In this document: positions 5,268 to 59,969 of the stretch, piece after piece
Position numbering within the stretch: the stretch's first letter is position 1
Layout: each line of letters opens with the position of its first letter
From: an uncultured Candidatus Saccharibacteria bacterium
GTDB lineage: Bacteria; Patescibacteriota; Minisyncoccia; Phycocordibacterales; UBA2163
DNA: 64,000 bases
NCBI GenBank assembly: GCA_964626705.1
Contig: CAZVGL010000001.1
Coordinates: 4,441 to 68,440 of the forward strand
Direction of reading: 5' to 3'
The notes under the pieces: generated by a model
What the model saw: the letters and a program-made list of their open reading frames with translations, nothing else
Told to the model about the DNA's origin: nothing
The model's database searches: none
Made by a program: the position numbers and the translations under genes

Positions 5268-6215
5268 ATGGGAGCAAAATCAGACTTAATATTTGTAATA
5301 CTTGTTATCGTAGCACTCGGTTTTGTGTGGGTGTTTACTGGAGGGCCTGAGCGTGCTCGCAACCAAGGAGTTTTTATAAAACCACCTGCTCCACTTGATT
5401 CTGGAGAAACATACGGAAAAATAAACGTGGTAAGATCTTCTGTTAATGTGGATCTTGACGGAAGTGGGAATGGAGGTGTACAAGTTGGTACGTCTGACGG
5501 AAACGGAAACAGTGGTGCTGAAGTTAATCCAAGCTCTTCAGAATTTGAAAACAAGGTAAGTATTAAAAGTAGCTCGACAGGACCTAGGAAAAGCTCTCCT
5601 TTGGAAGAATATATCACTTTGTCTGCATCAAGCAGGAACAATGAAAAGATTTCAATAACAGGATGGAAACTTGAAAGTATAATCTCAAAGAAACAAGCTA
5701 CAATAGGTGGCGCAACTGAAGTATATATATCAGGATTGGTAAACTCTGAACCTACACTCAAACTAGCACCAGGTGAAACCGTAATAATATCGACAGGGCT
5801 CTCTCCTATCGGTGCATCTTTTAAAGTCAACAAATGTAGTGGTTACCAAGAACAGTTCCAAGACTTCTTCCCCAAATTATCCAAAAAGTGCCCCTACCCA
5901 GACGACGAGTTTGACGATATCGCTTTAAGTATCCCCTCAACAGACAATAAATGCGAAGATTTTGTAGACAGTATTAGCAGATGTGAGATGGAGCTTACAG
6001 CCTTCCCTGCCGGCGTATCAAGTCAGTGTACTGAATTTGTTTCAAACACTATAAACTATTCAGGTTGTGTTAAAAACCATAGAGATGACCTAAACTTTTT
6101 TACAAAAGAGTGGAGAGTCTTTCTAAAGAAAGATAGTGAACTCTGGAGAGCAAAACGCGAAACCATAAGACTTATAGATAACGACGGCAAAGTCGTTGAT
6201 ACGTATACGTATTAA
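5268..6215 (+). CDS. secreted, membrane-anchored protein with a lamin-tail-domain-like segment
   Basis: N-terminal TM helix. Segment EEYITLSASS...ISITGWKLES...LKLAPGETVIISTG resembles the LTD pattern. C-terminal half is Cys-rich. Confidence 0.5.
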   Translation: MGAKSDLIFVILVIVALGFVWVFTGGPERARNQGVFIKPPAPLDSGETYGKINVVRSSVNVDLDGSGNGGVQVGTSDGNGNSGAEVNPSSSEFENKVSIKSSSTGPRKSSPLEEYITLSASSRNNEKISITGWKLESIISKKQATIGGATEVYISGLVNSEPTLKLAPGETVIISTGLSPIGASFKVNKCSGYQEQFQDFFPKLSKKCPYPDDEFDDIALSIPSTDNKCEDFVDSISRCEMELTAFPAGVSSQCTEFVSNTINYSGCVKNHRDDLNFFTKEWRVFLKKDSELWRAKRETIRLIDNDGKVVDTYTY

Positions 6216-6685
6216 ATATTTAATACTCTAAACAAAAACACTCCTGCCGTCACAGACACGTTGAGTGATTCTTTTTTGCCTAACATTTTTATTTGTGAGA
6301 TTTGATCACTTTTTTCTAAAATAGATTTGGAAAGCCCCTTCACTTCGTTTCCAAAAATAAACGCTGTAGAAGAATTTATTTTTACTTTTTTATAATCAAC
6401 TGCATCATTAGCTTGCTCAACTGCTACGATTGCAGTTTTTTCTTTCTTCAATTTATTTATTACAGGATTAACTGTTTTAAAATGCTCCCATTCTATATTT
6501 TTCTGTGCACCAAGTGCAGTTTTTGCAATATCGCTTCGCTCTCGTCCAAACCGATCAACTGGTGTAGGAGTATAGCCAGTAAGATATATTTTAGAAATAC
6601 CAGCAGCGTCAGCAGTCCTAAAAATAGAGCCCACGTTCTGCACGCTTCTTATATTGTGGAGTATTATGTATGTTTTATTATCCAT
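6212..6685 (-). CDS. SpoU/TrmH-class RNA 2'-O-methyltransferase (SPOUT)
   Basis: Motifs NVGSIFRTADAAGI, GNEVKGLS and SLNVSVTAGVFLF; 157 aa. Confidence 0.8.
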   Translation of the reverse strand: MDNKTYIILHNIRSVQNVGSIFRTADAAGISKIYLTGYTPTPVDRFGRERSDIAKTALGAQKNIEWEHFKTVNPVINKLKKEKTAIVAVEQANDAVDYKKVKINSSTAFIFGNEVKGLSKSILEKSDQISQIKMLGKKESLNVSVTAGVFLFRVLNI

Positions 6686-12379: not shown

Positions 12380-12805
12380 TTACTTCTTTGCATCTGCAAC
12401 CAAACCTTGAGCTTTTTTGAGAAGATCTGACATCTTCTTCTCAATTTCAGCCTGCATCTTCTCAAGCTCAGAAATACTCTCATCAACTTTTTTTATTCCA
12501 TTTTCGAGCATTACTTTTAATTTAGTGTTATCTGTTGTATCAGCGATACCTTGAAATTTTGCCTTTTGTAATTCAGTAGCCATGATTAGACCAACAACTT
12601 TCTGAAGTTCTTTTGACAGTTGATCCGATTCATTCTTAATTTCAAACAACTCCATCTTAAGCAAGATATTGTCTGTCAGTTGGATAAGCACACTTTCCAT
12701 AGTTTTTGACTTCTGCTCATCTTGCGCAAACGAATTAGCAGAGAAAGAAATAGTAACAACAATCAGTAATGCAACAAAGGTAGGTATAATTTTCGCAAAT
12801 TTCAT
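12380..12805 (-). CDS. secreted coiled-coil protein (signal peptide)
   Basis: 141 aa, MKFAKIIPTFVALLIVVTISFSANSFAQDE... It shares its start codon context, signal-peptide-like 5' end and about 220-bp upstream leader with the two duplicated genes upstream. Confidence 0.55.
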   Translation of the reverse strand: MKFAKIIPTFVALLIVVTISFSANSFAQDEQKSKTMESVLIQLTDNILLKMELFEIKNESDQLSKELQKVVGLIMATELQKAKFQGIADTTDNTKLKVMLENGIKKVDESISELEKMQAEIEKKMSDLLKKAQGLVADAKK

Positions 12806-13023
12806 TTTCGGTCTCCTTTCAAGAGATGAAAATTAAAAAGATAATATTTAATGTACAAAACAATACACTTGTATCGTACTTATATATTAGCATACTTATA
12901 TATGTTTGTCAAGGGTTAATTTTACCCTTACTCTAAGCTAGATTTGGATGCAAAAAAAAGGCCCGGCATATAAATATAACATGCTCGGACCCCGTCTTTC
13001 TTGAAACTGCGAACTTACTTTAA

Positions 13024-13467
13024 CTATTCGCACATATTTACTAAATCCCCTGAAGTAAACTCAACACCAGCAATCTTTACTTCATCCAGATTAATGACCG
13101 CATAATCACCATCTATTGTGGCTCCATTACTAACCATCGCAGACCTGCTTATTTCAGTAGTATCGCCGTATACTTTGACCCTTGCTTTAACAACAAACTT
13201 CATAAGTTCTGCATTAAGCGCTATTTTTGCAACCATTATTCCAAATTTTTCGCTACCATTATTTAATGCTGTAAATTGTGCAACTTTTGTACGAAGCAAT
13301 ATTTTACCATCATCACTTGATACAAATTCATAATTAAGGACGTATTCGTTTCTTACTCCAGGAACCGTATAAGCCAAAAGTCGCTTTTCTGCAAATGAAT
13401 CAGCAGAGAAAGAAGCGGTAACAACAAATAGCAACATAGCAATAACGACAAGATTTCGGATTTTCAT
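13024..13467 (-). CDS. secreted hypothetical protein, duplicate copy 1
   Basis: 147 aa, MKIRNLVVIAMLLFVVTASFSADSFAEKRL... with a signal peptide. An AGGAG ribosome-binding site precedes it (gaaaggagaccgaaaATG). Confidence 0.6.
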   Translation of the reverse strand: MKIRNLVVIAMLLFVVTASFSADSFAEKRLLAYTVPGVRNEYVLNYEFVSSDDGKILLRTKVAQFTALNNGSEKFGIMVAKIALNAELMKFVVKARVKVYGDTTEISRSAMVSNGATIDGDYAVINLDEVKIAGVEFTSGDLVNMCE

Positions 13468-13545
13468 TTTCGGTCTCCTTTCAAGAGATGAAAATTAAAA
13501 AGATAATATTTAATGTACAAAACAATACACTTGTATCGTACTTAT

Positions 13546-13574
13546 ATATTAGCATACTTATATATGTTTGTCAA
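13546..13574 (-). promoter_or_regulatory. sigma70-like promoter TTGACA-N17-TAATAT (minus strand)
   Basis: Equivalent copies lie at 12884-12912 (for the 12380 gene) and 14208-14236 (for copy 2). Each leader also carries the motif TCTAGCTTAGA just upstream of the -35 box, although that motif is absent from the diverged third leader. Confidence 0.5.
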
Positions 13575-13685
13575 GGGTTAATTTTACCCTTACTCTAAGC
13601 TAGATTTGGATGCAAAAAAAAGGCCCGGCATATAAATATAACATGCTCGGACCCCGTCTTTCTTGAAACTGCGAACTTACTTTAA

Positions 13686-14129
13686 CTATTCGCACATATT
13701 TACTAAATCCCCTGAAGTAAACTCAACACCAGCAATCTTTACTTCATCCAGATTAATGACCGCATAATCACCATCTATTGTGGCTCCATTACTAACCATC
13801 GCAGACCTGCTTATTTCAGTAGTATCGCCGTATACTTTGACCCTTGCTTTAACAACAAACTTCATAAGTTCTGCATTAAGCGCTATTTTTGCAACCATTA
13901 TTCCAAATTTTTCGCTACCATTATTTAATGCTGTAAATTGTGCAACTTTTGTACGAAGCAATATTTTACCATCATCACTTGATACAAATTCATAATTAAG
14001 GACGTATTCGTTTCTTACTCCAGGAACCGTATAAGCCAAAAGTCGCTTTTCTGCAAATGAATCAGCAGAGAAAGAAGCGGTAACAACAAATAGCAACATA
14101 GCAATAACGACAAGATTTCGGATTTTCAT
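13686..14129 (-). CDS. secreted hypothetical protein, duplicate copy 2 (100% identical)
   Basis: Identical 147-aa product; part of the tandem duplication. Confidence 0.6.
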   Translation of the reverse strand: MKIRNLVVIAMLLFVVTASFSADSFAEKRLLAYTVPGVRNEYVLNYEFVSSDDGKILLRTKVAQFTALNNGSEKFGIMVAKIALNAELMKFVVKARVKVYGDTTEISRSAMVSNGATIDGDYAVINLDEVKIAGVEFTSGDLVNMCE

Positions 14130-14240
14130 TTTCGGTCCCCTTTCAAGAGATGAAAATTAAAAAAGTAATATGTAATGTACAAAACAATACACTTGTATCG
14201 TGCTTATATATTAGCATATTTAGATGCGTTTGTCAAGTAC

Positions 14241-16412: not shown

Positions 16413-16475
16413 CTCTCCTCAAGGTCGCACCTATGAAGAAGGAGTTACGTATCTTCTTCATCGAGGAAAGACCTT
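16413..16475. repeat. dispersed palindromic intergenic repeat, copy R1
   Basis: ctcctcaaggtcgcacc...cgaggaaagacctt with an inner hairpin atgaagaag/cttcttcat. Confidence 0.75.
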
Positions 16476-16587
16476 AATTTATAGACGATAAAAAGCAATA
16501 CGATTGCTTTTTATTACCACACGGTTTTTATACAAAACAAATATTGTCACGATGTGGAAAAGACGCTAATATGGAAATAATAATGAC

Positions 16588-18255
16588 ATGGTCACTTTTG
16601 ATGAAACAAAAGTAGAGAAGAAGATTGCCCAACTCCACAGGAAAGAGGAGGAGGAATTAGCAGATATTCTATCAAACAAATATGGTTTGCAGTATATTGA
16701 CCTTTCTGGTGTTCCGATAAACACAGAAGCTCTTCAGCTCATCACAGAAGAAGTCTCTAAAGAAGCTGAAATGGCTATTTTTAAAAAAGTTGGCAAGAAG
16801 ATCTCCGTTGCCGTACGTTCACCAAACAATATAAAAACAAAAGAAGTGGTAAAAGAGCTTGAAGAAAAAAACTATCTTCCCACACTCTTCATGGCTTCTT
16901 CAAACAGTATTAACCGTGCTATTAAAAGATATGCTGACATCTCCTTTGCTGTTGAAACTAAAGCAGGGATGCTGGACATATCTGGAGAAGATATAAAAAA
17001 GATATTAACTTCACTAAACAGTGTTTCTGATATTAAAAACCTCATTGACGAAACATTGAAAATAAAAAAGGCTCACAGAATATCAAGAATACTTGAAGTT
17101 ATTATTGCTGGAGGTCTTGCAAAAAATGCATCTGACGTACATATAGAGCCAGAAGAAAATATAGTGCGTTTAAGATATCGTCTCGACGGTGTACTTATAA
17201 ACATTACAGATATTGATATAGAAACATATGACTTACTTTTATCAAGAATAAAACTTATATCCGGACTAAAGCTAAACCTAAAGAACACAGCACAAGACGG
17301 AAGGTTTAGTGTACAGATCGACGAAGATGATGTGGAAATAAGAACATCCATGCTTCCAGATGCATATGGTGAATCTATAGTTATGCGTATCCTAAACCCA
17401 AAGACGATATCTTTGTCGATGGAAGACTTGGGTATAGAAAAAAGGTTGTTTGATATCTTAGAAAGAGAAATATCTAAACCAAATGGCATGATACTAACAA
17501 CAGGACCAACTGGTTCTGGTAAAACAACCACACTATATGCATTCCTAAGAAGGATACAGACTCCCGAGAAAAAAATAATAACCATAGAAGACCCTATCGA
17601 GTACCATCTTCCAGGGATAGTGCAAACACAAGTAGACGATACAAATTATACATTTGGAAACGGCCTACGCTCAACTCTACGACAAGACCCTGACATCATA
17701 ATGGTGGGTGAGATACGAGATGAAGACGTAGCCTCAACTGCCATAAACGCATCCCTAACTGGTCATCTTGTATTCTCAACACTACACACAAACAATGCCG
17801 CTGGCTCATTCCCTCGCCTTATAGATCTTGGTATTAATCCTAAAGTTATAAGCTCTTCTATAAACGTAGTGCTAGCACAACGACTTGTAAGAAAGCTTTG
17901 TGAATCATGTAAAAAACAAATAGAAATAAGTGGCGACAAAAAGAAACAAATAGACAGGACTCTTGAAACTATTATTAATAAAGAAAATATTCAAGAGAAT
18001 ACTTCCATTATTTGGGAGGCCGGAGGATGTGACAAATGTAATAACACTGGATACAAAGGTAGGATCGGAGTTTTCGAAGCAGTTGTAATGGATGAAAAAG
18101 TAGAAGAGCTTGTAAAAGGTAGTGCGAGTGAAAGAGAGATATCTGAAGCTGCGATAAGCCAAGGAGTGCTTAGTATGCAACAAGACGGAGTACTGAAAGT
18201 CCTAAGAGGTGTCACGTCACTTGATGAGCTGGCGAGGGTGATAGAGCTGACCTAA
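16588..18255 (+). CDS. pilB: type IV pilus / type II secretion ATPase (PilB/GspE family)
   Basis: Walker A GPTGSGKTTTLYA, Asp box, His box and a C-terminal CxxC...CxxC motif; 555 aa. Confidence 0.9.
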   Translation: MVTFDETKVEKKIAQLHRKEEEELADILSNKYGLQYIDLSGVPINTEALQLITEEVSKEAEMAIFKKVGKKISVAVRSPNNIKTKEVVKELEEKNYLPTLFMASSNSINRAIKRYADISFAVETKAGMLDISGEDIKKILTSLNSVSDIKNLIDETLKIKKAHRISRILEVIIAGGLAKNASDVHIEPEENIVRLRYRLDGVLINITDIDIETYDLLLSRIKLISGLKLNLKNTAQDGRFSVQIDEDDVEIRTSMLPDAYGESIVMRILNPKTISLSMEDLGIEKRLFDILEREISKPNGMILTTGPTGSGKTTTLYAFLRRIQTPEKKIITIEDPIEYHLPGIVQTQVDDTNYTFGNGLRSTLRQDPDIIMVGEIRDEDVASTAINASLTGHLVFSTLHTNNAAGSFPRLIDLGINPKVISSSINVVLAQRLVRKLCESCKKQIEISGDKKKQIDRTLETIINKENIQENTSIIWEAGGCDKCNNTGYKGRIGVFEAVVMDEKVEELVKGSASEREISEAAISQGVLSMQQDGVLKVLRGVTSLDELARVIELT

Positions 18256-18274
18256 AGTTCTTTAAAATAAAAAG

Positions 18275-18320
18275 CTTCCAAGGGTAGCCCTTATAATTTA
18301 AAAAGGGCTACCCTTGGAAT
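18275..18320. other. long perfect hairpin (18-bp stem) after pilB
   Basis: cttccaagggtagccctt...agggctacccttggaat. There is no clear T-run on the plus strand. Confidence 0.4.
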
Positions 18321-18338
18321 CAATCAATATATCGAAAT

Positions 18339-18472
18339 CATGAATCTCTAAGCAATCTTTTAATGCAAGACTAAAAGTGAGCATCCTCCCTAAGGAGAGC
18401 CCGAGCAAGTCCAACCAGTGGTTGGAACCAAGGCATCCTCGAGAGGTGCGTCGGTTTGCTTAGAGATTCATG
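18339..18472. repeat. 134-bp GC-rich element bounded by perfect 17-bp terminal inverted repeats (MITE-like or structured RNA)
   Basis: catgaatctctaagcaa ... ttgcttagagattcatg. The interior is about 55% GC with nested palindromes (ccaaccagtggttgg; gcatcctc appears twice). Confidence 0.45.
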
Positions 18473-18500
18473 CTCTCGAAACAAAAAGCGGAGGAACTAA

Positions 18501-18577
18501 AGTGAAGTGTGCTTTTTTAAAAGTCTGGCCGAGTACAGCGAGGGTATCCGAGGACTTTTGAAAAAAGTACATTTCAC
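18501..18577. repeat. palindromic repeat family 2, copy A (upstream of ruvB)
   Basis: gtgaagtgtgcttttttaaaagtctggccgagtacagcgagggtatccgaggacttttgaaaaaagtacatttcac. Termini are inverted: gtgaaatgt/acatttcac. Confidence 0.7.
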
Positions 18578-18634
18578 TTTAAGTTCTTGTAGCTTCTATT
18601 TTCAATACATAAATACTAGCATATAAAATATATT

Positions 18635-19663
18635 ATGTCAAGCCCTAAAGAAACATTAAAAGATTCAGGCGGTAGTGGTATAAAAGCATCGCTTGATACC
18701 ACCCTTCGCCCCAAACACTGGGACGAATATGTTGGACAAGCAAATATCAAAGAAAACTTAAAGATATTGCTTACCGCAGCCAAAGAACGCTCTCATCCAC
18801 CAGAGCATCTCCTTTTTTATGGCCCACCAGGACTTGGGAAAACCACGCTAGCACACCTTATCTCGCAAGAACTCGGCGCTCAGGTGCGTGTCACTTCAGG
18901 ACCCGCTATTGAAAAGGTGGGTGACCTTGCAGCTATACTTACAAACCTCGGTGAAGGTGATATCCTTTTTATAGATGAGGTGCATAGACTTAATAAAACT
19001 ATTGAGGAAGTACTTTACCCTGCTATGGAGTCTGGGGTGATGGATATCATCATCGGTAAAGGTCCTTCTGCTCGGACTATACAGCTTGAGCTTCCGCCTT
19101 TCACACTTATAGCTGCTACGACTCGTATCGCACTTCTTTCTTCCCCTCTTCGTTCACGTTTTTCAGGTGGAACATTCCGCTTGAAGTTCTATGAGCAAAG
19201 CGAAATAGAAGAAATACTAAAACGCTCTGCTAAGATATTAGAAGTGGAGGTGGACGACCTTGCTGCAAATGAAATATCAAAAAGAAGTCGCTTCACACCG
19301 AGGATGGCAAACTACTTGTTGAAGCGTTGTCGTGATTTTGCACAAGTAAACCGAGAAACGCTTTCTAAAGACATGGTGGACAAAGCGCTAGAGCTTTTAG
19401 AGATAGACGAACTTGGACTTAACTCTTCTGATAGAAAGATCCTAGAAACTATTATAGAGAAGTTCAAAGGTGGGCCGGTAGGCCTTTCCACTATCGCTGC
19501 CGCAACATCAGAAGAGCAAGCTACAATAGAAGAAGTACATGAGCCATATCTTATACAGCTCGGGCTTCTACAACGCACACCACGTGGGCGTGTAGCAACA
19601 GAAGCAGCTTATAAACATTTGGGGTATGATGTACCCGAAGATTTACAAGGGAGATTATTATAA
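18635..19663 (+). CDS. ruvB: Holliday junction DNA helicase RuvB
   Basis: AAA+ Walker A GPPGLGKTTLA and sensor motifs; 342 aa. Confidence 0.95.
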   Translation: MSSPKETLKDSGGSGIKASLDTTLRPKHWDEYVGQANIKENLKILLTAAKERSHPPEHLLFYGPPGLGKTTLAHLISQELGAQVRVTSGPAIEKVGDLAAILTNLGEGDILFIDEVHRLNKTIEEVLYPAMESGVMDIIIGKGPSARTIQLELPPFTLIAATTRIALLSSPLRSRFSGGTFRLKFYEQSEIEEILKRSAKILEVEVDDLAANEISKRSRFTPRMANYLLKRCRDFAQVNRETLSKDMVDKALELLEIDELGLNSSDRKILETIIEKFKGGPVGLSTIAAATSEEQATIEEVHEPYLIQLGLLQRTPRGRVATEAAYKHLGYDVPEDLQGRLL

Positions 19664-19668
19664 AACAA

Positions 19669-19748
19669 GTGCAGTGAAATATGCTTTTTTAAAAGTCTGG
19701 CCGAGCATAGCGAGGGAGCCCGAGGACTTTTGAAAAAACATATTCCAC
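19669..19748. repeat. palindromic repeat family 2, copy B (downstream of ruvB)
   Basis: About 88% identical to copy A and in direct orientation. It overlaps the N-terminal extension of the track ORF for yebC. Confidence 0.7.
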
Positions 19749-19771
19749 GAAACGCTAATAATAAAAATACT

Positions 19772-20302
19772 ATGTCAGGACATAATAAATGGTCAAAAAT
19801 AAAACATAAAAAAGCACTTACAGATGCTAAGAAAAGCAAAGTGTTTTCAAAATTTGCGAAGCTTATCCAAGTAGAATCTAAGAAAGCAGGTGGCAACACT
19901 GACTCACCCGGTCTTCGCGCAGCTATCGACAAAGCAAAAGCTGAGAACATGCCATCAAGCAATATTGAAAAGGCGGTAGATAAAGGTAAAGCAGGAGAAG
20001 GTGAACACATGGAACATCTAACATTTGAAACATACGGCCCAGGTGGTTCAGCGGTGATAATAGAAGCGCTAACTGATAACAATAACCGCACATCACCAGA
20101 GATAAAACATATACTTACTAAAAGAGGTCTTGCGCTTGCAGCACAACATTCTGCAACATGGGCATTTGATAAAGTAGAAGGTGGTGGTTGGCAAGCCAAG
20201 ATGCCACATGAGGTTTCAGAAAGTGATCTAGAGAAGCTCGAAGGTCTTATAGAAGAGCTAGAAGACCACGAGGATGTACAAGGAGTATATACGAATGTTT
20301 AA
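19772..20302 (+). CDS. yebC: YebC/PmpR family DNA-binding regulatory protein
   Basis: MSGHNKWSKIKHKK...YGPGGSAVIIEALTDNNNRT. The track ORF starts at 19730, but the conserved N-terminus begins at 19772. Confidence 0.85.
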   Translation: MSGHNKWSKIKHKKALTDAKKSKVFSKFAKLIQVESKKAGGNTDSPGLRAAIDKAKAENMPSSNIEKAVDKGKAGEGEHMEHLTFETYGPGGSAVIIEALTDNNNRTSPEIKHILTKRGLALAAQHSATWAFDKVEGGGWQAKMPHEVSESDLEKLEGLIEELEDHEDVQGVYTNV

Positions 20303-21384: not shown

Positions 21385-21439
21385 CGCTCCTCAAGGTCGC
21401 ACCTCTCCCGTCGCAAGCTCCTCCTCGAGGAACGACCTT
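21385..21439. repeat. dispersed palindromic intergenic repeat, copy R2
   Basis: cgctcctcaaggtcgcacctctcccgtcgcaagctcctcctcgaggaacgacctt. Confidence 0.75.
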
Positions 21440-21581
21440 ATAAATAAACAAGTTGTCCACAGCAAAATTAGCAAGGTATTGCAAAAAAATATAGATTTGA
21501 TAAAAATATAGAGCTAGGCCTAAATACAGTAATTCAGATAGGCTGGGTCGTTTAAAAGATAATTATATAAACACAAAATAT

Positions 21582-27589: not shown

Positions 27590-27628
27590 CTTCGCATCTT
27601 TTTCATCGAGGAAAGACCTTTTCCCGCT
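27590..27628. repeat. truncated half-copy of the dispersed repeat (R4)
   Basis: ...atcttcgcatctttttcatcgaggaaagacctt matches the right half of R1. Confidence 0.5.
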
Positions 27629-27641
27629 ATTTAACGAATTC

Positions 27642-28745
27642 TTACTTATTCATCGGCATGACTAAATAAAAGAAGCTATTATCCCCCACCCCTCTTACAA
27701 TAACAGGTTTACTTAACCCTGCGAATGATAGCGATACACTATCTTGGTTTATGGACTGGAAGCAATCTGATATGTATTTGTGGTTAAAATTTATATTAAG
27801 AGCATCGCCTGTTATAGCAGAGTCTACTGCGTCTGTAACCTCCCCTACGTTTTCATTTCTAGAGCTTACTGTGAACGACTTTTCTTCTTGATTAATAGAA
27901 AAACTAACCTGATTAAACTTATCTGAGAAAACATTGGTGTTTTTAAGCGTATTTATAATATCCTGCTTTAAAACTATCACTTCTGTAGTATGACTTTTAG
28001 GAACTATTTGTTTATAGTCAGGAAATGAGCCATTTATAAGCCTTGAGGTTAGATAAATCTTGTCAGAAACAAAAGAAATCTGATTATTACTGATATTTAT
28101 CTGTATATCACCACCAATATACTCTAAAACCCTTATAATCTCTGCTATATTTGAAAGTGGGATCAAAATAGGCTCAAAATCCTCTATTTTATCCTTAATT
28201 ATCAATGTTTTTTCTGCAAGTCTAAATGAATCCGTGGCTACAAATATAAGTTTTCCGTCATTATGGTAGATATAAACACTTGAAAGCTCTTGTTTTATAG
28301 ACGAAACAGAAGCACTAAACCATACTGATTTTAAGCCGTTTACTAAGTCTTTAGCCTTAATATGTATAGGATTATCTGATTTTACCTGAGGTAATGTAGG
28401 AAAATCATCATTTGGGACTGTATTTACAAGAGCATTAGTGCTTTTTGTGGATACTGTTAGGTTATTAGACACAACTTCCAAAACAATCTTATCAGAGCCA
28501 TAAATGGTTGAAATAAGACCATGTAAGACCTGTCCAGACACTGCGACTATCCCCTCTTTTTCCACTTTACATGCAACCTCTATTTCTATACCCAAGTCCA
28601 AGTTTGTAGACCGTACTGTAAACTTATTATCTTTTGCTATAAGTAGTAAATTATTTAAAACAGGAAGCGTTAAGTTCTTACCGCTTATCTTTTCAGCTAC
28701 TCCAATACTTTCCACCAAATTTTCTTTTATACATTCTATTTTCAT
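27642..28745 (-). CDS. dnaN: DNA polymerase III beta subunit (sliding clamp)
   Basis: 367 aa, MKIECIKENLVESIGVAEKISGKNLTLPVLNNLLL..., with a three-domain beta-clamp layout. Confidence 0.9.
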   Translation of the reverse strand: MKIECIKENLVESIGVAEKISGKNLTLPVLNNLLLIAKDNKFTVRSTNLDLGIEIEVACKVEKEGIVAVSGQVLHGLISTIYGSDKIVLEVVSNNLTVSTKSTNALVNTVPNDDFPTLPQVKSDNPIHIKAKDLVNGLKSVWFSASVSSIKQELSSVYIYHNDGKLIFVATDSFRLAEKTLIIKDKIEDFEPILIPLSNIAEIIRVLEYIGGDIQINISNNQISFVSDKIYLTSRLINGSFPDYKQIVPKSHTTEVIVLKQDIINTLKNTNVFSDKFNQVSFSINQEEKSFTVSSRNENVGEVTDAVDSAITGDALNINFNHKYISDCFQSINQDSVSLSFAGLSKPVIVRGVGDNSFFYLVMPMNK

Positions 28746-29011
28746 ATTGTATTAGTTATAGTTTAGTTTCTCTTAATTTATTTTATTACTACTATTACTT
28801 AGTGTGTGGATATGTGTATAACTTTCTCTTTTGTATATTCTTAAACATACTTTTTGTATTTATAATCCACATTTTCTTGTTGATAAGTTATGTATAAGTT
28901 GTTTTTAAAAACTGTATAACTTTCTTTTTTAAATAAACCTAAATCTATGTGAAACTTATGCAATAGTTGTTAACGTTTTTATACATAAGTTATCAACAGG
29001 CTTATCAACAG
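28746..29011. other. candidate oriC: DnaA-box cluster in the dnaA-dnaN intergenic region
   Basis: AT-rich 266-bp spacer with at least 5 DnaA-box-like 9-mers (TTATCCACA within 1-2 mismatches): 28805-13, 28863-71, 28878-86, 28990-98, 29002-10. Confidence 0.6.
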
Positions 29012-30388
29012 CTAACTTAGCATCATTCTTATCTGCTCCACCTCTTTTATAAGTAGGCTATCAACTTTCAGATCGTTTTTTATCTTTTCACATGAGTGAA
29101 TAACTGTAGTATGGTCTCGACCACCAAGCTTCTGACCTATAGTAGGGTATGAAACATTAAAATCTTCTCTCAGTATGTACATAATAAGTTGCCTTGGCTT
29201 CACAACTTCTTTAACACGTGTTTTTTTGTAAATAATATCTTCTTCAAGGTTATAAAAGTCTGCAACTTGTTTAATAACATCCTTTACAGAAACAGATTTC
29301 TTAGGTTTTACATTATTTTTTATAAGATTCTTCACATCACTTAAAGACAAGACTTTGTCTTTAAGTTGTGACTGACAGATGATGGAGTTTAGTATTCCTT
29401 CAAGCTCGCGTATGTTTCCATGAACGTTTGAAGCAAGGTAGTTTGTAACTTCATCGTCTATTATCAGCTTACTTTGTTGAGCTTTCGATTTTATAATAGC
29501 GATGCGAGATTCACTATCAGGAGACGGTATGTCTATTATCATACCTGAAGAAAACCTAGACTTTAAGCGGTCTTCTAGGTTTGGTATGAAGTTTGGGTGC
29601 TTGTCAGATGAAAATATAATCTGTTTATTGTTGTCATAAAGTGCATTAAAAAGATGGAATAGCTCTTCACGAGTTTTGTCCATTGTAGAGAGGAACTGGA
29701 TGTCATCTAGTATAAGCACATCGTATTTTCTATACTTTTCTTTAAAGAGTGTGTTGATCTTATTACTACGAAGAGCGCTTACGTAGTCCATAGCGAACTT
29801 TTCTGACGTAGTGTAAAACACTTTTGTGTCAGGGTTTCTTTTTTTAAGCTGATTCCCTATTGATTGGATAAGGTGTGTCTTACCGTGCCCAGTTCCACCA
29901 TAAATAAAAAGTGGATTGTAGACTATTCCCGGCTTTTCTACTACGGCTTGTGACGCAGCATGTGCAAGTTCGTTAAATGAACCTACGACAAATGTATCAA
30001 ATATGTATCTTGGGTTTAGATTGTCTTCTTTATTTATATAAAAATCATTCAAAGGTAGTTCTCTGTTTACACTTTGTTTTTCTTTTACGTCATCCCCCTT
30101 TTTTTCATCTTTTTTAACTATATATTCAAGTCCTCGTATACTTGGGACAAAATTTCTTAATATTTTTAGTATTGTTTTATGATATTTGTCAAAAAGCCAA
30201 CCTCTCGCGAACTCACTTTCTACACTTAAGTAGACTACATTGTCCTCTATTTTTATTATGTGTGTGTTTTTAAACCAAGTACTGAAATTTGCTTTAGATA
30301 TCTCAAGCTCTACATCAACGAGAGTGTTTTCCCAAAGTTCTTTTACATTAACTTCTTCTATTACATTATCGTTTATAGTTTCATTCAT
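29012..30388 (-). CDS. dnaA: chromosomal replication initiator DnaA
   Basis: AAA+ Walker A GGTGHGKTHL and the C-terminal DNA-binding domain (ILREDFNVSYPTIGQKLGGRDHTTVIH). Confidence 0.95.
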   Translation of the reverse strand: MNETINDNVIEEVNVKELWENTLVDVELEISKANFSTWFKNTHIIKIEDNVVYLSVESEFARGWLFDKYHKTILKILRNFVPSIRGLEYIVKKDEKKGDDVKEKQSVNRELPLNDFYINKEDNLNPRYIFDTFVVGSFNELAHAASQAVVEKPGIVYNPLFIYGGTGHGKTHLIQSIGNQLKKRNPDTKVFYTTSEKFAMDYVSALRSNKINTLFKEKYRKYDVLILDDIQFLSTMDKTREELFHLFNALYDNNKQIIFSSDKHPNFIPNLEDRLKSRFSSGMIIDIPSPDSESRIAIIKSKAQQSKLIIDDEVTNYLASNVHGNIRELEGILNSIICQSQLKDKVLSLSDVKNLIKNNVKPKKSVSVKDVIKQVADFYNLEEDIIYKKTRVKEVVKPRQLIMYILREDFNVSYPTIGQKLGGRDHTTVIHSCEKIKNDLKVDSLLIKEVEQIRMMLS

Positions 30389-30513
30389 AAATTTTTGAGA
30401 AAATTAAATATATTACACTTATTATATAGTTATAAGAAAATAATGTAACTTGATATTAAACGGAATATATGTTAATAAAGTGTTAACAACCTGTTAATAA
30501 CTTTAATAAAAAC

Positions 30514-42672: not shown

Positions 42673-42761
42673 TTTTTTTGTTAGCTCTGCTTCGTAGTCT
42701 TTTTCTGCATAAAATCAAATTTTCGCTTTGTAGCCGCTCACACTTGTGAGGGATGCAGACA

Positions 42762-42890
42762 AAGGTCTTTCTTCGGCGAAACGAAGTGGAGCGGAGGAGA
42801 GTCCTTGTGTCAAATTCCGTATTTACTCCACCAAGGTCTCACCTTTCCCGTCGCTGTCACTCCTCCTCAAGGAAAGACCTTTTTCCGCGA
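42762..42890. repeat. composite copy (two adjacent units) of the dispersed palindromic repeat (R6)
   Basis: aaggtctttcttcggcgaaacgaagtggagcggaggagagtccttgtg plus ccaaggtctcacctttcccgtcgctgtcactcctcctcaaggaaagacctt. Confidence 0.7.
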
Positions 42891-42932
42891 ATACTTGCAA
42901 AAAGTGTAGTTTTCTGCTATTATATACAGGTT

Positions 42933-43199
42933 ATGCTTACGAAGAAAAAGAAAGAAAAAACAATAAAAGAGACGCAAGTTCATGATAAAGACACAGGATC
43001 TCCTGAAGTGCAGGTTTCTATCCTTACAAAACGGATCACTGAACTTACAAAACACCTCAAAAAAAACAACAAAGACAAGCACCCACGCCGAGGGCTTTTA
43101 GGTATGGTTGCTGCTCGTAGGACACATCTAAAGTATTTAGAGAAAAAGGATAAAAAGCGATACAGTGCTGTTATCAAAAAACTTGGTTTGAAGAAATAG
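42933..43199 (+). CDS. rpsO: 30S ribosomal protein S15
   Basis: [63 protein letters not shown]... The track ORF (42753) is a spurious upstream extension across the repeat. Confidence 0.9.
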
Positions 43200-43267: not shown

Positions 43268-43327
43268 TTCGCTCCTTAAGGTCTCACCTCTCTCTACGAG
43301 GCGAGGAAAGACCTTTTCCTGCGAAAC
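43268..43327. repeat. dispersed palindromic intergenic repeat, copy R7
   Basis: ttcgctccttaaggtctcacctctctctacgaggcgaggaaagacctt. Confidence 0.7.
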
Positions 43328-53571: not shown

Positions 53572-53652
53572 ACCTCTCCTCAATGTCCCACCTACGAAGG
53601 AGGAGTTTCGTATCTCCTTCGTCGTCTATCTGCGAGGAACAACCTTTTCCCT
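53572..53652. repeat. dispersed palindromic intergenic repeat, copy R8 (diverged)
   Basis: cctctcctcaatgtcccacctacgaaggaggagtttcgtatctccttcgtcgtctatctgcgaggaacaacctt. Confidence 0.6.
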
Positions 53653-58205: not shown

Positions 58206-59969
58206 ATGAGTAAAAATATTTTTAAAAAAATAATATCCAGTATTCTAACAATCGCAATTTTTGCAATAAGTATTTTTGGTACTTTTAATATTAGTATTAC
58301 AGTTGCCGCAACAAAACCACCAAGGACTCAAGGATTGCCAGGATCAGGGACAAGTGGTAATCGTAATGAAATCATGACAGGGGCTGAAGGGGTAAATGCT
58401 GTTGGGGTAAATACAGCAACTGTGGTAGTTGATCAAGATGTTGTAGGTATGTTGTCACCAGTTGATAAATTAATTGATCAAGATGTTGTAGGTATGTTGT
58501 CACCAGTTGATAAATTAATTGATCAAGATGCTATAGGTATGTTGTCAGCAAATGATGCACAGATAAGTCAAGTAAAAAACAAAACAGCAGGGATTTTAAG
58601 TTCAAACCCTTTTGGAAACAGTATGGTTCCTACAGATGATGTAAAAGATAATTACAAAGAAAGGGTACAAGATTCTATTTGGTCACTTATGGCAAAAAGA
58701 GCTATAAGGATGATCACTACAAGTACTGTAAACTGGATAAATAATGGTTTTCAGGGTGGTCCAGCATATGTAACAGATCTTAACGGTTTTCTTCTTGATG
58801 TTGCAGATGATCAGACTAGTATCTTCATAGAGCGTCTAGGGCTTACAGATCTATGTAGTCCTTGGAAGTTAGACATACGAATTGCATTAGCAATGAGACA
58901 GGCAGCACCGTTTGACAGAGAAATCGCATGTACCCTCTCTGACATTGTGGCAAATATGGATGATTTTATAAATGGAGATTTCTCTCAAGGTGGATGGGCA
59001 GGGTGGTTTGAACTTACTACAAAACCACAAAATAACCCTTATGGACTTTATCTTATGACAGCATCTGAGCTTGACCAAAGGATAGCGGGTACACAACAGC
59101 GACAGACACAAATCCTTGATTGGGGTGATGGATTTCTTTCGTATGAAGAATGTGAAGACTTACCCGAAGGGTTTGGGGGACCACCGCGTTGTGAAATAGT
59201 AACACCGGGGACTGTTATTGAAAATCAATTAGACCATGTTTTGGGTACTGGTGTAAGGCAGTTAGAGCTTGCGGATGAATTTAATGAAGTAATAAATGCT
59301 TTAATGCAACAGCTTGTGGTACAAGTATTTACTGGAGTAGATGGATTGAGGGGTGTAAGTAGAAGTTATGGAGGTAACCCATCGTATACAAACCGTCTTT
59401 CAGCTACTGAAGATAATACTACGATAGGAAATGTCATAGCAAGTTCAGAGCTTGAGTTTGGAAGGGTGTTAAATGAAGAGTTAGTTTACCTGACAGCCAA
59501 AGACGGCTCACTTAAGAGTATTGAGGCGGCAGAAAACAGACTTTCTAGCTTGGTCGCATGTTACGACAATAAACTCGCGGATATCAGTTTGAATTTAACT
59601 ATTAGTGAAAAAACAATAGCTCTTGAGAGGAGAAACAGTGCCTCTTCTACTATAGATACACTCATCACACCGCGTAAGAATATTCTTATCACAGAAATAG
59701 ATTTTTCAAGTAGGGTTATATTGAAATTAGATTCATTGTTAACTAATATGCAAAACGCAACAAATCCAATTCAGCTTCAAGTACCTACAAGTGAGTTAGA
59801 AAGTATGCGCAGACAGGATATTCTAAGAGGTCCATATATATTTTCTGCAGAGCAGGAAAGGGTGGGATTGTTGAGCGAGATGAATGCACTTAACCAAGAT
59901 ACTGAGAATAAAATTACAGAATGTCAGGTATTCCCGCTGCTACCGCAGGGGCAACAGCAGAATCCATAA
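58206..59969 (+). CDS. large secreted hypothetical protein with internal 15-aa tandem repeats
   Basis: N-terminal TM/signal helix. DQDVVGMLSPVDKLI repeated. Q-rich C-terminus. Confidence 0.5.
   Translation: MSKNIFKKIISSILTIAIFAISIFGTFNISITVAATKPPRTQGLPGSGTSGNRNEIMTGAEGVNAVGVNTATVVVDQDVVGMLSPVDKLIDQDVVGMLSPVDKLIDQDAIGMLSANDAQISQVKNKTAGILSSNPFGNSMVPTDDVKDNYKERVQDSIWSLMAKRAIRMITTSTVNWINNGFQGGPAYVTDLNGFLLDVADDQTSIFIERLGLTDLCSPWKLDIRIALAMRQAAPFDREIACTLSDIVANMDDFINGDFSQGGWAGWFELTTKPQNNPYGLYLMTASELDQRIAGTQQRQTQILDWGDGFLSYEECEDLPEGFGGPPRCEIVTPGTVIENQLDHVLGTGVRQLELADEFNEVINALMQQLVVQVFTGVDGLRGVSRSYGGNPSYTNRLSATEDNTTIGNVIASSELEFGRVLNEELVYLTAKDGSLKSIEAAENRLSSLVACYDNKLADISLNLTISEKTIALERRNSASSTIDTLITPRKNILITEIDFSSRVILKLDSLLTNMQNATNPIQLQVPTSELESMRRQDILRGPYIFSAEQERVGLLSEMNALNQDTENKITECQVFPLLPQGQQQNP
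58431..58556 (+). repeat. 45-bp in-frame tandem repeat, about 2.8 copies
   Basis: gatcaagatgttgtaggtatgttgtcaccagttgataaattaatt appears twice, followed by a diverged partial copy. Confidence 0.85.

What the first reader, a model, noticed from the sequence alone, without database searches (positions are those of the whole stretch)
18256..19748. ruvB is bracketed by direct copies of a second palindromic repeat, next to a 134-bp GC-rich element with perfect 17-bp terminal inverted repeats
Two roughly 77-bp elements, about 88% identical, lie 58 nt upstream and immediately downstream of ruvB in direct orientation. Their core is GCTTTTTTAAAAGTCTGGCCGAG..CGAGGG..CCGAGGACTTTTGAAAAAA and their termini are GTGAAATGT/ACATTTCAC. 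Just upstream, 18339-18472 carries perfect TIRs catgaatctctaagcaa/ttgcttagagattcatg enclosing a roughly 55%-GC core with nested palindromes. That composition is very atypical for this AT-rich genome. These could be MITEs, a structured small RNA or riboswitch-like leader for ruvB, or recombination sites. The downstream repeat overlaps the annotated N-terminal extension of yebC, which argues for the shorter yebC start.
Basis: seen in the sequence. Interest (0 to 1): 0.6.

Follow-up and report, generated by a model that had tools for sequence, protein, structure and literature searches.

The report
Conserved small RNA plus mobile hairpins
The GC-rich "element" upstream of ruvB is a small structured RNA gene that matches no described RNA family, is read from the opposite strand and is conserved across a class of ultra-small (Patescibacteria) bacteria; the two repeats around ruvB belong to a dispersed hairpin family that elsewhere sits in frame inside housekeeping genes, as the palindromic elements of Rickettsia do.

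Summary

**The 134-bp "TIR element" (18339-18472) is a single-copy structured small RNA gene on the minus strand, not a MITE or a ruvB leader.**
- It lies next to ruvB in 22 Patescibacteria loci, including cultured Minisyncoccus archaeiphilus.
- 33 of its 50 base pairs show compensatory changes.
- G·U pairs outnumber A·C pairs 82:22 on the minus strand.
- Every homolog has a TTGACA-N17-TAnnnT promoter on that strand, and most have an intrinsic terminator.
- The -35 box is often the reverse complement of ruvB's ATGTCAA start.
- No Rfam family matches. The function is unknown.

**The two ~95-nt repeats (R1 ~18491-18590, R2 ~19664-19758) are lineage-specific insertions.**
- They are absent from all the relatives' ruvB loci searched.
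- They belong to a hairpin family found in 32 metagenome contigs.
- In 17 of the 23 distinct loci the element lies in frame inside intact housekeeping genes (TGT, KsgA, RNase R, PolA, Mur ligase, Fmt, SMC, TruB), in either orientation.
- Two closely related genomes carry it as exact reverse complements at the same RNase R site.
- This resembles Rickettsia palindromic elements. The mobilising enzyme and any target-site duplication are unknown.

R1 sits between the sRNA promoter and the sRNA. The shorter yebC start (19772) is supported.

The parts
18262..18319 (-). Intrinsic terminator of the small RNA gene. It is a 17-bp perfect stem at 18276-18292/18303-18319, followed on the minus strand by GCUUUUUAUUUU (18275-18262). 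It also closes the convergent pilB gene, but has no U-run on the plus strand.
   Evidence: Inverted repeat I6. Fold -31.2 kcal/mol, z = -7.0. Minus-strand terminator-like sites. Equivalent minus-strand terminators in most homologous loci.
18333..18478 (-). The 'TIRs' are the closing helix P1. P3 is a long arm with an invariant AGGA/UCCU helix, a C/UA internal loop and tandem U·G/G·U pairs. P4 is a small hairpin. P2 is a variable hairpin that is absent in this genome.
   Evidence: Covariance-model hit of 110.7 bits on the minus strand against 53.8 on the plus strand. 90.6% of cells paired against 77% in shuffles, with 33 of 50 pairs compensatory. G·U:A·C = 82:22 on the minus strand. Minus-strand fold z = -8.5. 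No Rfam match.
18491..18590 (+). R1, an intergenic copy of the dispersed palindromic hairpin family. Its apical core is GUC-U-GG-[CCGAGY-NNA-GCGAGG]-RRNY-CC-GAG-GAC. It is inserted between the sRNA promoter and the sRNA, so it probably lies in the sRNA's 5' leader in antisense orientation.
   Evidence: Absent at the same place in L008, a relative with 93% RuvB identity. In the homologs other than the window the gap between promoter and RNA is 3-84 nt; here it is 134 nt.
18613..18641 (-). Sigma-70-type promoter of the small RNA: TTGACA, 17 nt, TG-extended TAGTAT. The -35 hexamer is the reverse complement of the first codons of ruvB (ATGTCAA at 18635-18641).
   Evidence: Best promoter-like site in the region, 10 of 12 matches with TG. 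The same arrangement occurs in 22 of 22 homologous loci. ATGTCAA at the presumed ruvB start is visible in 12 loci (the window and 11 of the 18 relatives shown).
18635..19663 (+). ruvB (342 aa), the Holliday-junction helicase. It is not itself unusual.
   Evidence: Pfam RuvB_N/AAA/WHD_RuvB annotations on identical contigs. 565 related stretches found in the genome collection.
19664..19758 (+). R2, the second intergenic copy of the hairpin family. It fills almost all of the 108-nt ruvB-yebC spacer and overlaps the spurious TTG-start extension of yebC (19730-19771).
   Evidence: At least 14 relatives in which yebC lies downstream of ruvB have no R copy.
19772..20302 (+). yebC with its correct start (176 aa, MSGHNKW...).
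   Evidence: Pfam TACO1_YebC_N begins at residue 19 of the 190-aa ORF. Relatives align from residue 1 of the short form. The 176-aa form is called on L002 and L005.

Best explanation
The interval holds two independent things.

**(A) A small RNA gene at 18333-18478, minus strand.**
- It is an independently transcribed, structured small RNA of about 150 nt.
- Shown: transcription signals are a strong sigma-70 promoter at 18641-18613 and the intrinsic terminator at 18319-18262.
- Shown: the RNA folds into a long closing helix (the apparent 'TIRs') that encloses a conserved irregular arm (P3) and a small hairpin (P4).
- Shown: it is single-copy and conserved divergently next to ruvB across the class Paceibacteria.
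- Inferred: it acts in trans as a protein-binding RNA. A 6S-like or other RNP role is the leading guess, at about 20%.
- Inferred: its strong promoter overlaps the ruvB start codon. That overlap both locks the gene to ruvB and probably competes with the weak, probably leaderless ruvB promoter.

**(B) R1 and R2, two copies of a non-autonomous palindromic DNA element.**
- They belong to a ~95-nt family that is RPE-like or MITE-like and is dispersed in Patescibacteria.
- Shown: family members occupy intergenic spacers, and permissive linkers or loops of housekeeping proteins, where they are carried in frame.
- Shown: the element can invert in place.
- Inferred: both window copies are recent insertions in this lineage, one into the sRNA leader and one into the ruvB-yebC spacer.
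- Inferred: they have no dedicated role in ruvB expression.
- Inferred: the nearly invariant apical loop is the recognition site of an unidentified mobilising enzyme.
For: **sRNA**
- Homologs lie upstream of ruvB in L008-L024, L031, L043, L047, L052 and L075 (Minisyncoccus archaeiphilus). The minus-strand score is always higher, including for non-seed members: L019 75.9 vs 35.6 bits, L009 75.4 vs 40.4, L031 53.3 vs 34.6.
- RNAalifold finds 31 of 40 pairs compensatory on the minus strand, at -35.6 kcal/mol. On the plus strand it finds 23 of 31, at -27.7 kcal/mol.
- On the four-helix structure, 90.6% of cells are paired against 77.2% in shuffles (0 of 500 reach it) and at most 49.5% when partners are slid. 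33 of 50 pairs are compensatory.
- G·U:A·C on the minus strand is 82:22 overall, 41:5 in P3 and 20:1 in P4.
- A promoter is present in 22 of 22 homologs and a terminator in most, all on the minus strand.
- The window and its closest relative L008 differ by compensatory changes.

**R**
- The core pattern is found in 33 metagenome stretches, 32 of them real hairpins.
- 18 of 31 pairs covary.
- 17 of 23 unique loci carry it inside long ORFs. Pfam domains continue on both sides of the element.
- It is absent from L008 and from all other ruvB loci searched.
- L102 and L114 carry exact reverse-complement elements at the same site, with flanks about 95% identical.
- The window's PolA lacks the element where L098's PolA has it.
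- RPEs are described as ~150-bp palindromic elements that insert in frame into unrelated genes (PMC10969869).
Against: **sRNA**
- There is no expression data.
- Function is not established.
- There is no Rfam match, not even a weak consistent one, so the 6S-like guess has no positive support.
- Some P1 and P2 positions show wobble pairs on the plus strand.
- All homologs were collected through ruvB, so the linkage to ruvB is partly an ascertainment effect. The control is about 290 kb of other Patescibacteria-like metagenome DNA (host taxa inferred, not named) that has neither ruvB nor a credible sRNA hit.
- The Minisyncoccus hit is weak (E = 0.0065).

**R**
- No transposase, no clear target-site duplication and no autonomous parent were found.
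- Only two copies occur in 64 kb.
- Covariation of the outer arms, and a strand asymmetry, hint at selection on a folded strand rather than pure selfish spread. The asymmetry is that tandem G·A pairs form only on one strand, and that strand folds better in 22 of 25 copies.
- A protein-database search for the encoded peptides returned nothing.
- The rest of the source genome could not be searched.
Confidence: 0.72

Rival explanations
1. The 134-bp element is a cis-acting 5' leader (riboswitch or attenuator) of ruvB on the plus strand.
For: It lies directly upstream of ruvB in every locus examined. The plus strand also folds better than shuffled sequence, z = -4.6. A few P1 and P2 pairs show G·U on the plus strand.
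Against: G·U:A·C is 82:22 in favour of the minus strand, with P3 at 41:5 and P4 at 20:1. Covariance-model scores are higher on the minus strand for all members, including non-seed ones. The consensus promoter and the U-tailed terminator are on the minus strand in all or most loci, while on the plus strand the hairpin at 18276-18319 has no U-run. No riboswitch family matches.
Confidence: 0.05
2. The 134-bp element is a MITE or the remnant of a mobile element with 17-bp terminal inverted repeats.
For: It has perfect 17-bp inverted termini and atypical GC content.
Against: It is single-copy in the window. It sits at the same syntenic position in 22 loci whose RuvB identity to the window's ranges from 93% down to 56%. 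The 'TIRs' covary as a helix: in distant members P1 has entirely different sequences that still pair. It has its own promoter and terminator.
Confidence: 0.03
3. R1 and R2 are functional structured elements selected in place, not selfish insertions. Candidate roles are mRNA stabilisers, transcription insulators, antisense-RNA modules, or protein-binding DNA or RNA hairpins. Bracketing ruvB, or more broadly the ruv/yebC cluster, would then be meaningful.
For: The apical ~40 nt is nearly invariant across hosts with 34-60% GC. The outer arms covary. One strand forms two tandem G·A motifs and folds better in 22 of 25 copies. The only two copies in 64 kb flank one gene. An independent copy lies between yebC and ruvC in L106, and other copies lie next to ruvA (L101, L104) or after recR (L088).
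Against: The closest relative and about 20 other relatives lack both copies. Copies sit in at least 9 unrelated genes, in either orientation relative to the mRNA: 12 antisense and 5 sense. The element flips between close relatives and completely changes the encoded peptide. Arm covariation can also arise by intra-palindrome gene conversion. The pattern search fixed 20 positions of the core, so their invariance among the retrieved copies is partly built in. The association with ruv genes rests on very few independent events.
Confidence: 0.15
4. R1 and R2 are recombination sites (attC-like or Xer-like) that make ruvB a mobile or excisable cassette.
For: They are direct repeats flanking a single gene, and each is an imperfect palindrome of attC-like length.
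Against: The ruvB-yebC(-ruvC) synteny is ancestral and present without the repeats in relatives. No integrase is nearby. By inspection there are no GTTRRRY/RYYYAAC core sites. All 7 contig places shown that carry this exact RuvB have the same arrangement. Most family members are single and intragenic.
Confidence: 0.03

Closest known systems
Rickettsia palindromic elements (RPEs; Ogata et al. 2000, as summarised in PMC10969869)
   Same: Both are short (~100-150 bp) palindromic, non-coding-for-transposase repeats. Both are found intergenically and also inserted in frame into unrelated housekeeping genes, adding a peptide at tolerated positions. Both occur in reduced genomes of host-dependent bacteria.
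   Different: The phylum differs (Patescibacteria). No sequence relationship was tested or is expected. This family has a nearly invariant apical loop with tandem G·A pairs. It is seen in both orientations at the same site, with evidence of in-situ inversion. Copy number here looks low, at 2 per 64 kb.
Bacterial MITEs and Correia/ERIC/BOX-type small dispersed repeats
   Same: Long inverted arms, small size, dispersed copies, presence/absence between relatives, and occasional co-transcription with neighbouring genes.
   Different: No target-site duplication, no parent IS and no transposase were identified. The arms covary rather than being conserved in sequence.
6S RNA (Rfam RF00013) and other abundant housekeeping sRNAs (SRP 4.5S RNA, Y RNA)
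   Same: The sRNA is about 150 nt and single-copy, and has a strong sigma-70 promoter plus an intrinsic terminator. A long closing helix is formed by the 5' and 3' ends. An interrupted middle region is followed by a terminal arm.
   Different: No match to any Rfam model at E <= 10 in the window or in 10 homologs. The middle region is a multi-helix junction rather than an open bubble. The SRP GGAA tetraloop and AGCAGC motif are absent, by inspection. There is no evidence of RNA polymerase or protein binding.
REP elements mobilised by RAYT transposases
   Same: Palindromic hairpins with strand asymmetry.
   Different: REPs are 20-40 nt with a GTAG or CGTC head (PMC3733652 abstract). R is ~95 nt and has no such head.

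Membership tests
RPE-like in-frame palindromic elements | Short palindromic repeat able to fold as a long hairpin | tested here: met
   Fold z = -7.2 and -4.3 for R1 and R2. 31 consensus pairs, 18 of them compensatory, over 25 copies.
RPE-like in-frame palindromic elements | Copies inserted in frame into unrelated, intact protein-coding genes | tested here: met
   17 of 23 unique loci. Hosts include TGT, RrnaAD, RNB, DNA_pol_A, Mur ligase, Formyl_trans, SMC, MTS and TruB, with Pfam domains on both sides of the element. The two window copies themselves are intergenic.
RPE-like in-frame palindromic elements | Sequence homology to the described Rickettsia RPE families, or occurrence in Rickettsia | not tested
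   No RPE sequences were available in the tools. The host here is Patescibacteria, so this can only be an analogous family.
MITE | Terminal inverted repeats | tested here: met
   24-25-nt arms at 88% complementarity. The subfamily ends are TTAGTG.../...CACTAA.
MITE | Target-site duplication flanking the element | tested here: inconclusive
   Comparison with the empty site in L008 and with other flanks gave no consistent duplication. A possible ATAAAA at R2 is not distinguishable from chance in AT-rich DNA.
MITE | Multiple dispersed copies within a genome | tested here: inconclusive
   Two copies in the 64-kb window. Up to 3 copies in a 4-kb metagenome locus, L114.
MITE | A related autonomous IS with the same ends, or a cognate transposase | not tested
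Riboswitch or cis-regulatory leader of ruvB (for the 134-bp element) | Transcribed on the same strand as, and upstream of, the regulated gene | tested here: not met
   G·U:A·C is 82:22 for the opposite strand. The promoter and terminator are on the opposite strand in 22 of 22 and most loci respectively.
Riboswitch or cis-regulatory leader of ruvB (for the 134-bp element) | Match to a described aptamer or leader family | tested here: not met
   No Rfam hit at E <= 10.
6S RNA | Match to the Rfam 6S covariance models | tested here: not met
   No hit at E <= 10 in the window or in 10 homologous loci.
6S RNA | Closing stem, large central bubble and terminal stem | tested here: inconclusive
   The closing helix (24 bp) and a terminal arm are present. 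The middle is a junction with the P2 and P4 hairpins rather than an open bubble.
6S RNA | Binds the RNA polymerase holoenzyme and templates product RNAs | not testable with these tools
   This needs biochemistry or RNA-seq.
Bacterial SRP (4.5S) RNA | Helix 8 with a GNRA tetraloop and the conserved GGAAGCAGC motif, plus a match to the Rfam model | tested here: not met
   No Rfam hit. The motif is absent from the consensus.
Independent sRNA gene (generic) | Own promoter and terminator, conserved secondary structure with covariation, and no conserved ORF | tested here: met
   Coding potential was not formally tested, but compensatory changes in all four helices argue for an RNA.
Integron attC site (for R1 and R2) | R''/R' core sites (RYYYAAC and GTTRRRY) and a neighbouring integron integrase | tested here: not met
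   No such core sites in the sequences, by inspection. No integrase within +/-10 kb.

The most novel reading that the evidence does not exclude
Two non-exclusive readings are not excluded.

(1) The sRNA is a class-wide, essential RNP component or global regulator of Paceibacteria. It could be their unrecognised 6S-like RNA, or a regulator tied to recombination or competence, given its fixed position between pilB and ruvB and a promoter that overlaps the ruvB start.

(2) The R hairpin is not merely selfish. Its invariant loop with tandem G·A pairs could be a functional protein-binding module. The in-place flipping would then be a programmed switch that rewrites a peptide segment inside housekeeping proteins, or toggles an antisense structure.
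Probability: 0.15. Interest if true: 0.85.

Novelty: new member of a known kind. Interest (0 to 1): 0.62.

Why it matters
Patescibacteria (the candidate phyla radiation) make up a large share of bacterial diversity, yet their non-coding repertoire is almost uncharted.

**The sRNA.** It is strongly supported by comparative evidence, matches no Rfam family, and is conserved from metagenome bins to the cultured Minisyncoccus archaeiphilus. That gives an experimentally reachable entry point.

**The hairpin family.** It shows that in-frame colonisation of housekeeping genes by palindromic elements is not confined to Rickettsia. The phenomenon also occurs in an unrelated lineage of reduced, host-dependent bacteria. 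Inversion at a fixed site swaps the encoded peptide. This matters for three reasons:
- gene calling, as the false yebC extension here shows;
- protein-family models, because Pfam alignments break at the element;
- understanding how small genomes tolerate and recycle selfish DNA.

Tried and rejected
- **Rfam at gathering thresholds.** Searched on the window and 20 related loci. Only tRNAs were found.
- **Rfam at E <= 10.** Searched on the interval, on 10 sRNA-homolog loci and on 9 R loci. Only hairpin-like chance hits (miRNA models, leader peptides elsewhere) appeared, and nothing consistent at either feature.
- **Viral contigs scanned for the R core.** No matches.
- **Protein-database search with a chimeric peptide encoding both orientations of R.** Three candidates, none significant.
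- **Literature searches.** Topics covered were RPE- or MITE-like elements in CPR/Patescibacteria, 6S RNA in Patescibacteria, and Parcubacteria ncRNAs. Nothing relevant turned up beyond a general MITE review.
- **A 12-nt perfect complementarity between 18354-18365 and ruvB codons 7-10 (I8).** Rejected as a regulatory pairing. It is not conserved in L008, and the minus-strand RNA carries the same sense as the mRNA there.
- **SRP RNA, 5S rRNA, tRNA-like, Y RNA, hammerhead or other ribozymes for the sRNA.** All rejected on missing signature motifs and on the lack of Rfam hits.
- **attC or Xer sites and REP/RAYT for R.** Rejected on missing signature motifs.
- **Target-site duplications.** None could be established.
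- **A weak covariance-model hit in L091 (E = 0.014).** It is not next to ruvB and is treated as noise.
Full report
**Context.** The window is AT-rich (36% GC). It comes from a metagenome-assembled Patescibacteria (CPR) genome of the Paceibacteria/Campbellbacteria type. The nearest RuvB relatives are an unnamed MAG (93% identity) and a Candidatus Campbellbacteria MAG (77%). Many others are labelled Paceibacteria, Parcubacteria or Kaiserbacteria. The local gene order is pilB-like T2SSE ATPase (16588-18255, +), ruvB (18635-19663, +), yebC, a 118-aa ORF (-) and ruvC. dnaN and dnaA lie about 8-10 kb further on.

**Observation check.**
- The two repeats are 89% identical over 66 ungapped nt, direct, and each a long hairpin. 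The core pattern occurs twice against 0 expected.
- The 134-bp element has a perfect 17-nt inverted repeat, 24 nt at 92% complementarity.
- Its core is 52% GC.
- Its folding energy is far beyond shuffles, especially on the minus strand: z = -8.5 against -4.6 on the plus strand.

**The 134-bp element is a conserved small RNA gene on the minus strand.**
- BLAST and visual inspection of the ruvB-upstream regions of related genomes showed the same element at the same place. It is 84% identical in L008. In L009-L024 it is recognisable through ...ATCTCTAAGCAA...AAGGATAA..CCAG-hairpin-ACCAGAATGTCCTC...TTGCTTAGAGAT.
- RNAalifold on 17 sequences gave 40 pairs, 31 with compensatory changes, on the minus strand. 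The plus strand gave 31 pairs, 23 compensatory, with worse energy.
- A four-helix structure (P1 closing helix, which is the 'TIRs'; P2 variable hairpin; P3 long arm; P4 hairpin) was tested on a 13-sequence alignment. 90.6% of cells pair, against 77.2% in column shuffles (0 of 500 reach the observed value) and at most 49.5% when partners are slid. 33 of 50 pairs carry changes on both sides.
- The strand is decided by wobble pairs. There are 82 G·U cells on the minus strand and 22 A·C cells, which would be G·U on the plus strand. The ratio is 41:5 in P3 and 20:1 in P4.
- A covariance model built from this alignment found further members that were not in the seed: L019, L009, L012, L021, L024, L031, L052, L047, L043 and L075. 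L075 is the cultured Minisyncoccus archaeiphilus, with E = 0.0065. All lie directly upstream of ruvB, and all score better on the minus strand.
- There were no hits in the non-Patescibacteria ruvB loci, and no credible hits in about 290 kb of unrelated Patescibacteria-like contigs (host taxa inferred, not named), which also lack ruvB.
- In distant members P1 has completely different sequences that still pair. The 'TIRs' are therefore an RNA helix and not transposon ends.
- All 22 homologs have TTGACA-N15-19-TAnnnT, mostly with a TG extension, on the minus strand 3-84 nt before P1. Most have a GC-rich hairpin plus U-run after P1 on that strand.
- In the window, the promoter scan's best site is exactly this one: 18641-18613, 10 of 12 matches with TG. 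The hairpin at 18276-18319 is followed by a U-run only on the minus strand.
- In 12 loci (the window and 11 of the 18 relatives shown) the -35 TTGACA is the reverse complement of the ruvB start ATGTCAA.
- No Rfam family matches the RNA, in the window or in ten homologs, even at E <= 10.
- The window and its closest relative differ by compensatory substitutions in P3, so the structure is still under selection in this lineage.

**The two repeats belong to a dispersed, RPE-like hairpin family.**
- The closest relative (L008) lacks R1: its sRNA is followed directly by the promoter. None of the 80 ruvB loci contains an R copy, although at least 14 of them have yebC downstream of ruvB. Both copies are therefore insertions specific to this lineage.
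- A scan of metagenome contigs with a 20-base core pattern returned 33 stretches. In 32 of them the core sits at the tip of a ~95-nt hairpin. The inner arms are conserved and the outer arms differ but stay complementary. Over 25 distinct copies, 18 of 31 pairs are compensatory.
- Seventeen of the 23 distinct loci carry the element inside a long ORF. It adds about 30 residues...KSSSSESPRxSSLRSARLSSEDF... when antisense to the gene (12 cases), or ...KKVWPSEARRPEDF... or ...SLAERSEETRGLF... when sense (5 cases).
- The hosts are intact housekeeping genes: TGT, KsgA, RNase R, DNA polymerase I, a Mur ligase, Fmt, SMC, a methyltransferase and TruB. Pfam domains lie on both sides of the insert.
- Coding-type copies are free of stop codons in 4-5 of 6 frames. 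The AT-rich intergenic subtype, to which R1 and R2 belong, is not.
- In PolA the element occupies the variable linker. The window's own PolA has an unrelated acidic linker at that position.
- Orthologous sites recur, for example one RNase R site in L096, L097, L102 and L114. In two closely related genomes with flanks about 95% identical, the whole element is present as exact reverse complements. The Mur ligase pair L104/L101 shows the same.
- The element therefore inverts in place. The encoded peptide is evidently not what is conserved.
- Other unrelated insert families occupy the same kinds of sites.
- This set of properties matches what is described for Rickettsia palindromic elements (PMC10969869). 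I found no report of such elements in Patescibacteria in the searchable literature. No Rfam family matches R.

**What remains unexplained about R.**
- One strand (the '+' orientation used here) forms two tandem G·A motifs, one in the stem and one in the apical hairpin CC-GA-GY-NNA-GC-GA-GG. That strand folds better in 22 of 25 copies.
- The apical ~40 nt is almost invariant in hosts ranging from 34% to 60% GC.
- This could reflect recognition by a mobilising enzyme, which is my preferred inference, or a function of the folded strand.
- No transposase, parent element or target-site duplication was found.
- The only two copies in 64 kb flank one gene, and an independent copy lies between yebC and ruvC in L106. 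This is suggestive but rests on too few events.

**How the pieces fit in the window.** The minus-strand unit reads as follows:
- promoter (18641-18613);
- about 20 nt of spacer;
- R1 in antisense orientation (18590-18491);
- about 12 nt of spacer;
- the sRNA (18478-18333);
- the terminator (18319-18262).

In the homologs other than the window the gap between promoter and RNA is 3-84 nt; here it is 134 nt because of R1. R1 thus probably adds a ~100-nt hairpin to the sRNA's 5' leader. A U-run 6 nt after that hairpin might attenuate transcription, but that is inference only. R2 fills the ruvB-yebC spacer and created the illusion of an N-terminal extension of yebC. The Pfam N-terminal domain and the alignments with relatives support the ATG at 19772.

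**Verdict.**
It is wrong on the ruvB-leader and recombination-site ideas.
- Both features are new members of known kinds: an unclassified bacterial sRNA family, and an RPE-like palindromic element family in a new phylum.
- Function of the sRNA and the mobilisation mechanism of R are inferred, not shown.

Noticed in passing
window ~16421-16478, 21386-21440, 27593-27627 (partial), 42830-42885, 43272-43320, 53585-53650: A second repeated motif, mostly intergenic (the 42830-42885 copy lies within the ORF 42753-43199): AAGGUC[G/U]CACCU-(variable hairpin)-(C)GAGGAAAGACCUU, with outer pairing AAGGUC/GACCUU. It has no Rfam hit at gathering threshold.
   Followed up: partly
L102:~6150-6400 vs L114 (same RNase R site); L104 vs L101 (same Mur ligase site): Closely related genomes carry the R element at the identical site as exact reverse complements. 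This changes the encoded ~30-aa insert completely and is evidence of in-situ inversion of a palindromic element inside an essential gene.
   Followed up: yes
L118 RNase R, L105 SMC (twice), L102 and L114 RNase R, L101 and L104 Mur ligase: Other, unrelated in-frame insert families occur in the same host proteins. Examples are ..NQNKNFDSSSLKGSHGTQNF.. and ..SPLTPLLNAGEGK...PSPASRGRAGDEV.., sometimes at the site that holds R in orthologs.
   Followed up: no
window 12800-14237: A 662-nt tandem repeat (two copies 100% identical over 300 nt, a third about 92%) encodes 147-aa ORFs of unknown function. The number of such ORFs differs between otherwise near-identical contigs (L001 vs L002).
   Followed up: no
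window 19767-19796 (minus strand): A second promoter-like site (TTGACC-18-TAGTAT) overlaps the yebC start and points into R2. This mirrors the arrangement at ruvB and R1. It may be chance, since the hexamer lies in the conserved KWSK codons.
   Followed up: no
window ~27600-30400: dnaN and dnaA lie on the minus strand, and the cumulative GC-skew minimum falls at about 28-30 kb. The replication origin is therefore probably within the window, and ruvB lies on the lagging strand.
   Followed up: no
window 58426-58560: Three tandem 45-nt repeats (98% and 80% identical to the reference copy) lie inside a long ORF (58206-59969).
   Followed up: no
L096:2090-2502 and L097:1977-2265: 16S rRNA genes start about 1 kb from the R-bearing RNase R genes (a membrane-protein ORF lies between). 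They could be used to place those R-carrying genomes taxonomically.
   Followed up: no
window 18354-18365 and 18654-18665: A 12-nt perfect inverted match links the sRNA region and ruvB codons 7-10. It is not conserved in L008 and has the wrong sense for pairing with the minus-strand RNA, so it is judged to be chance.
   Followed up: yes
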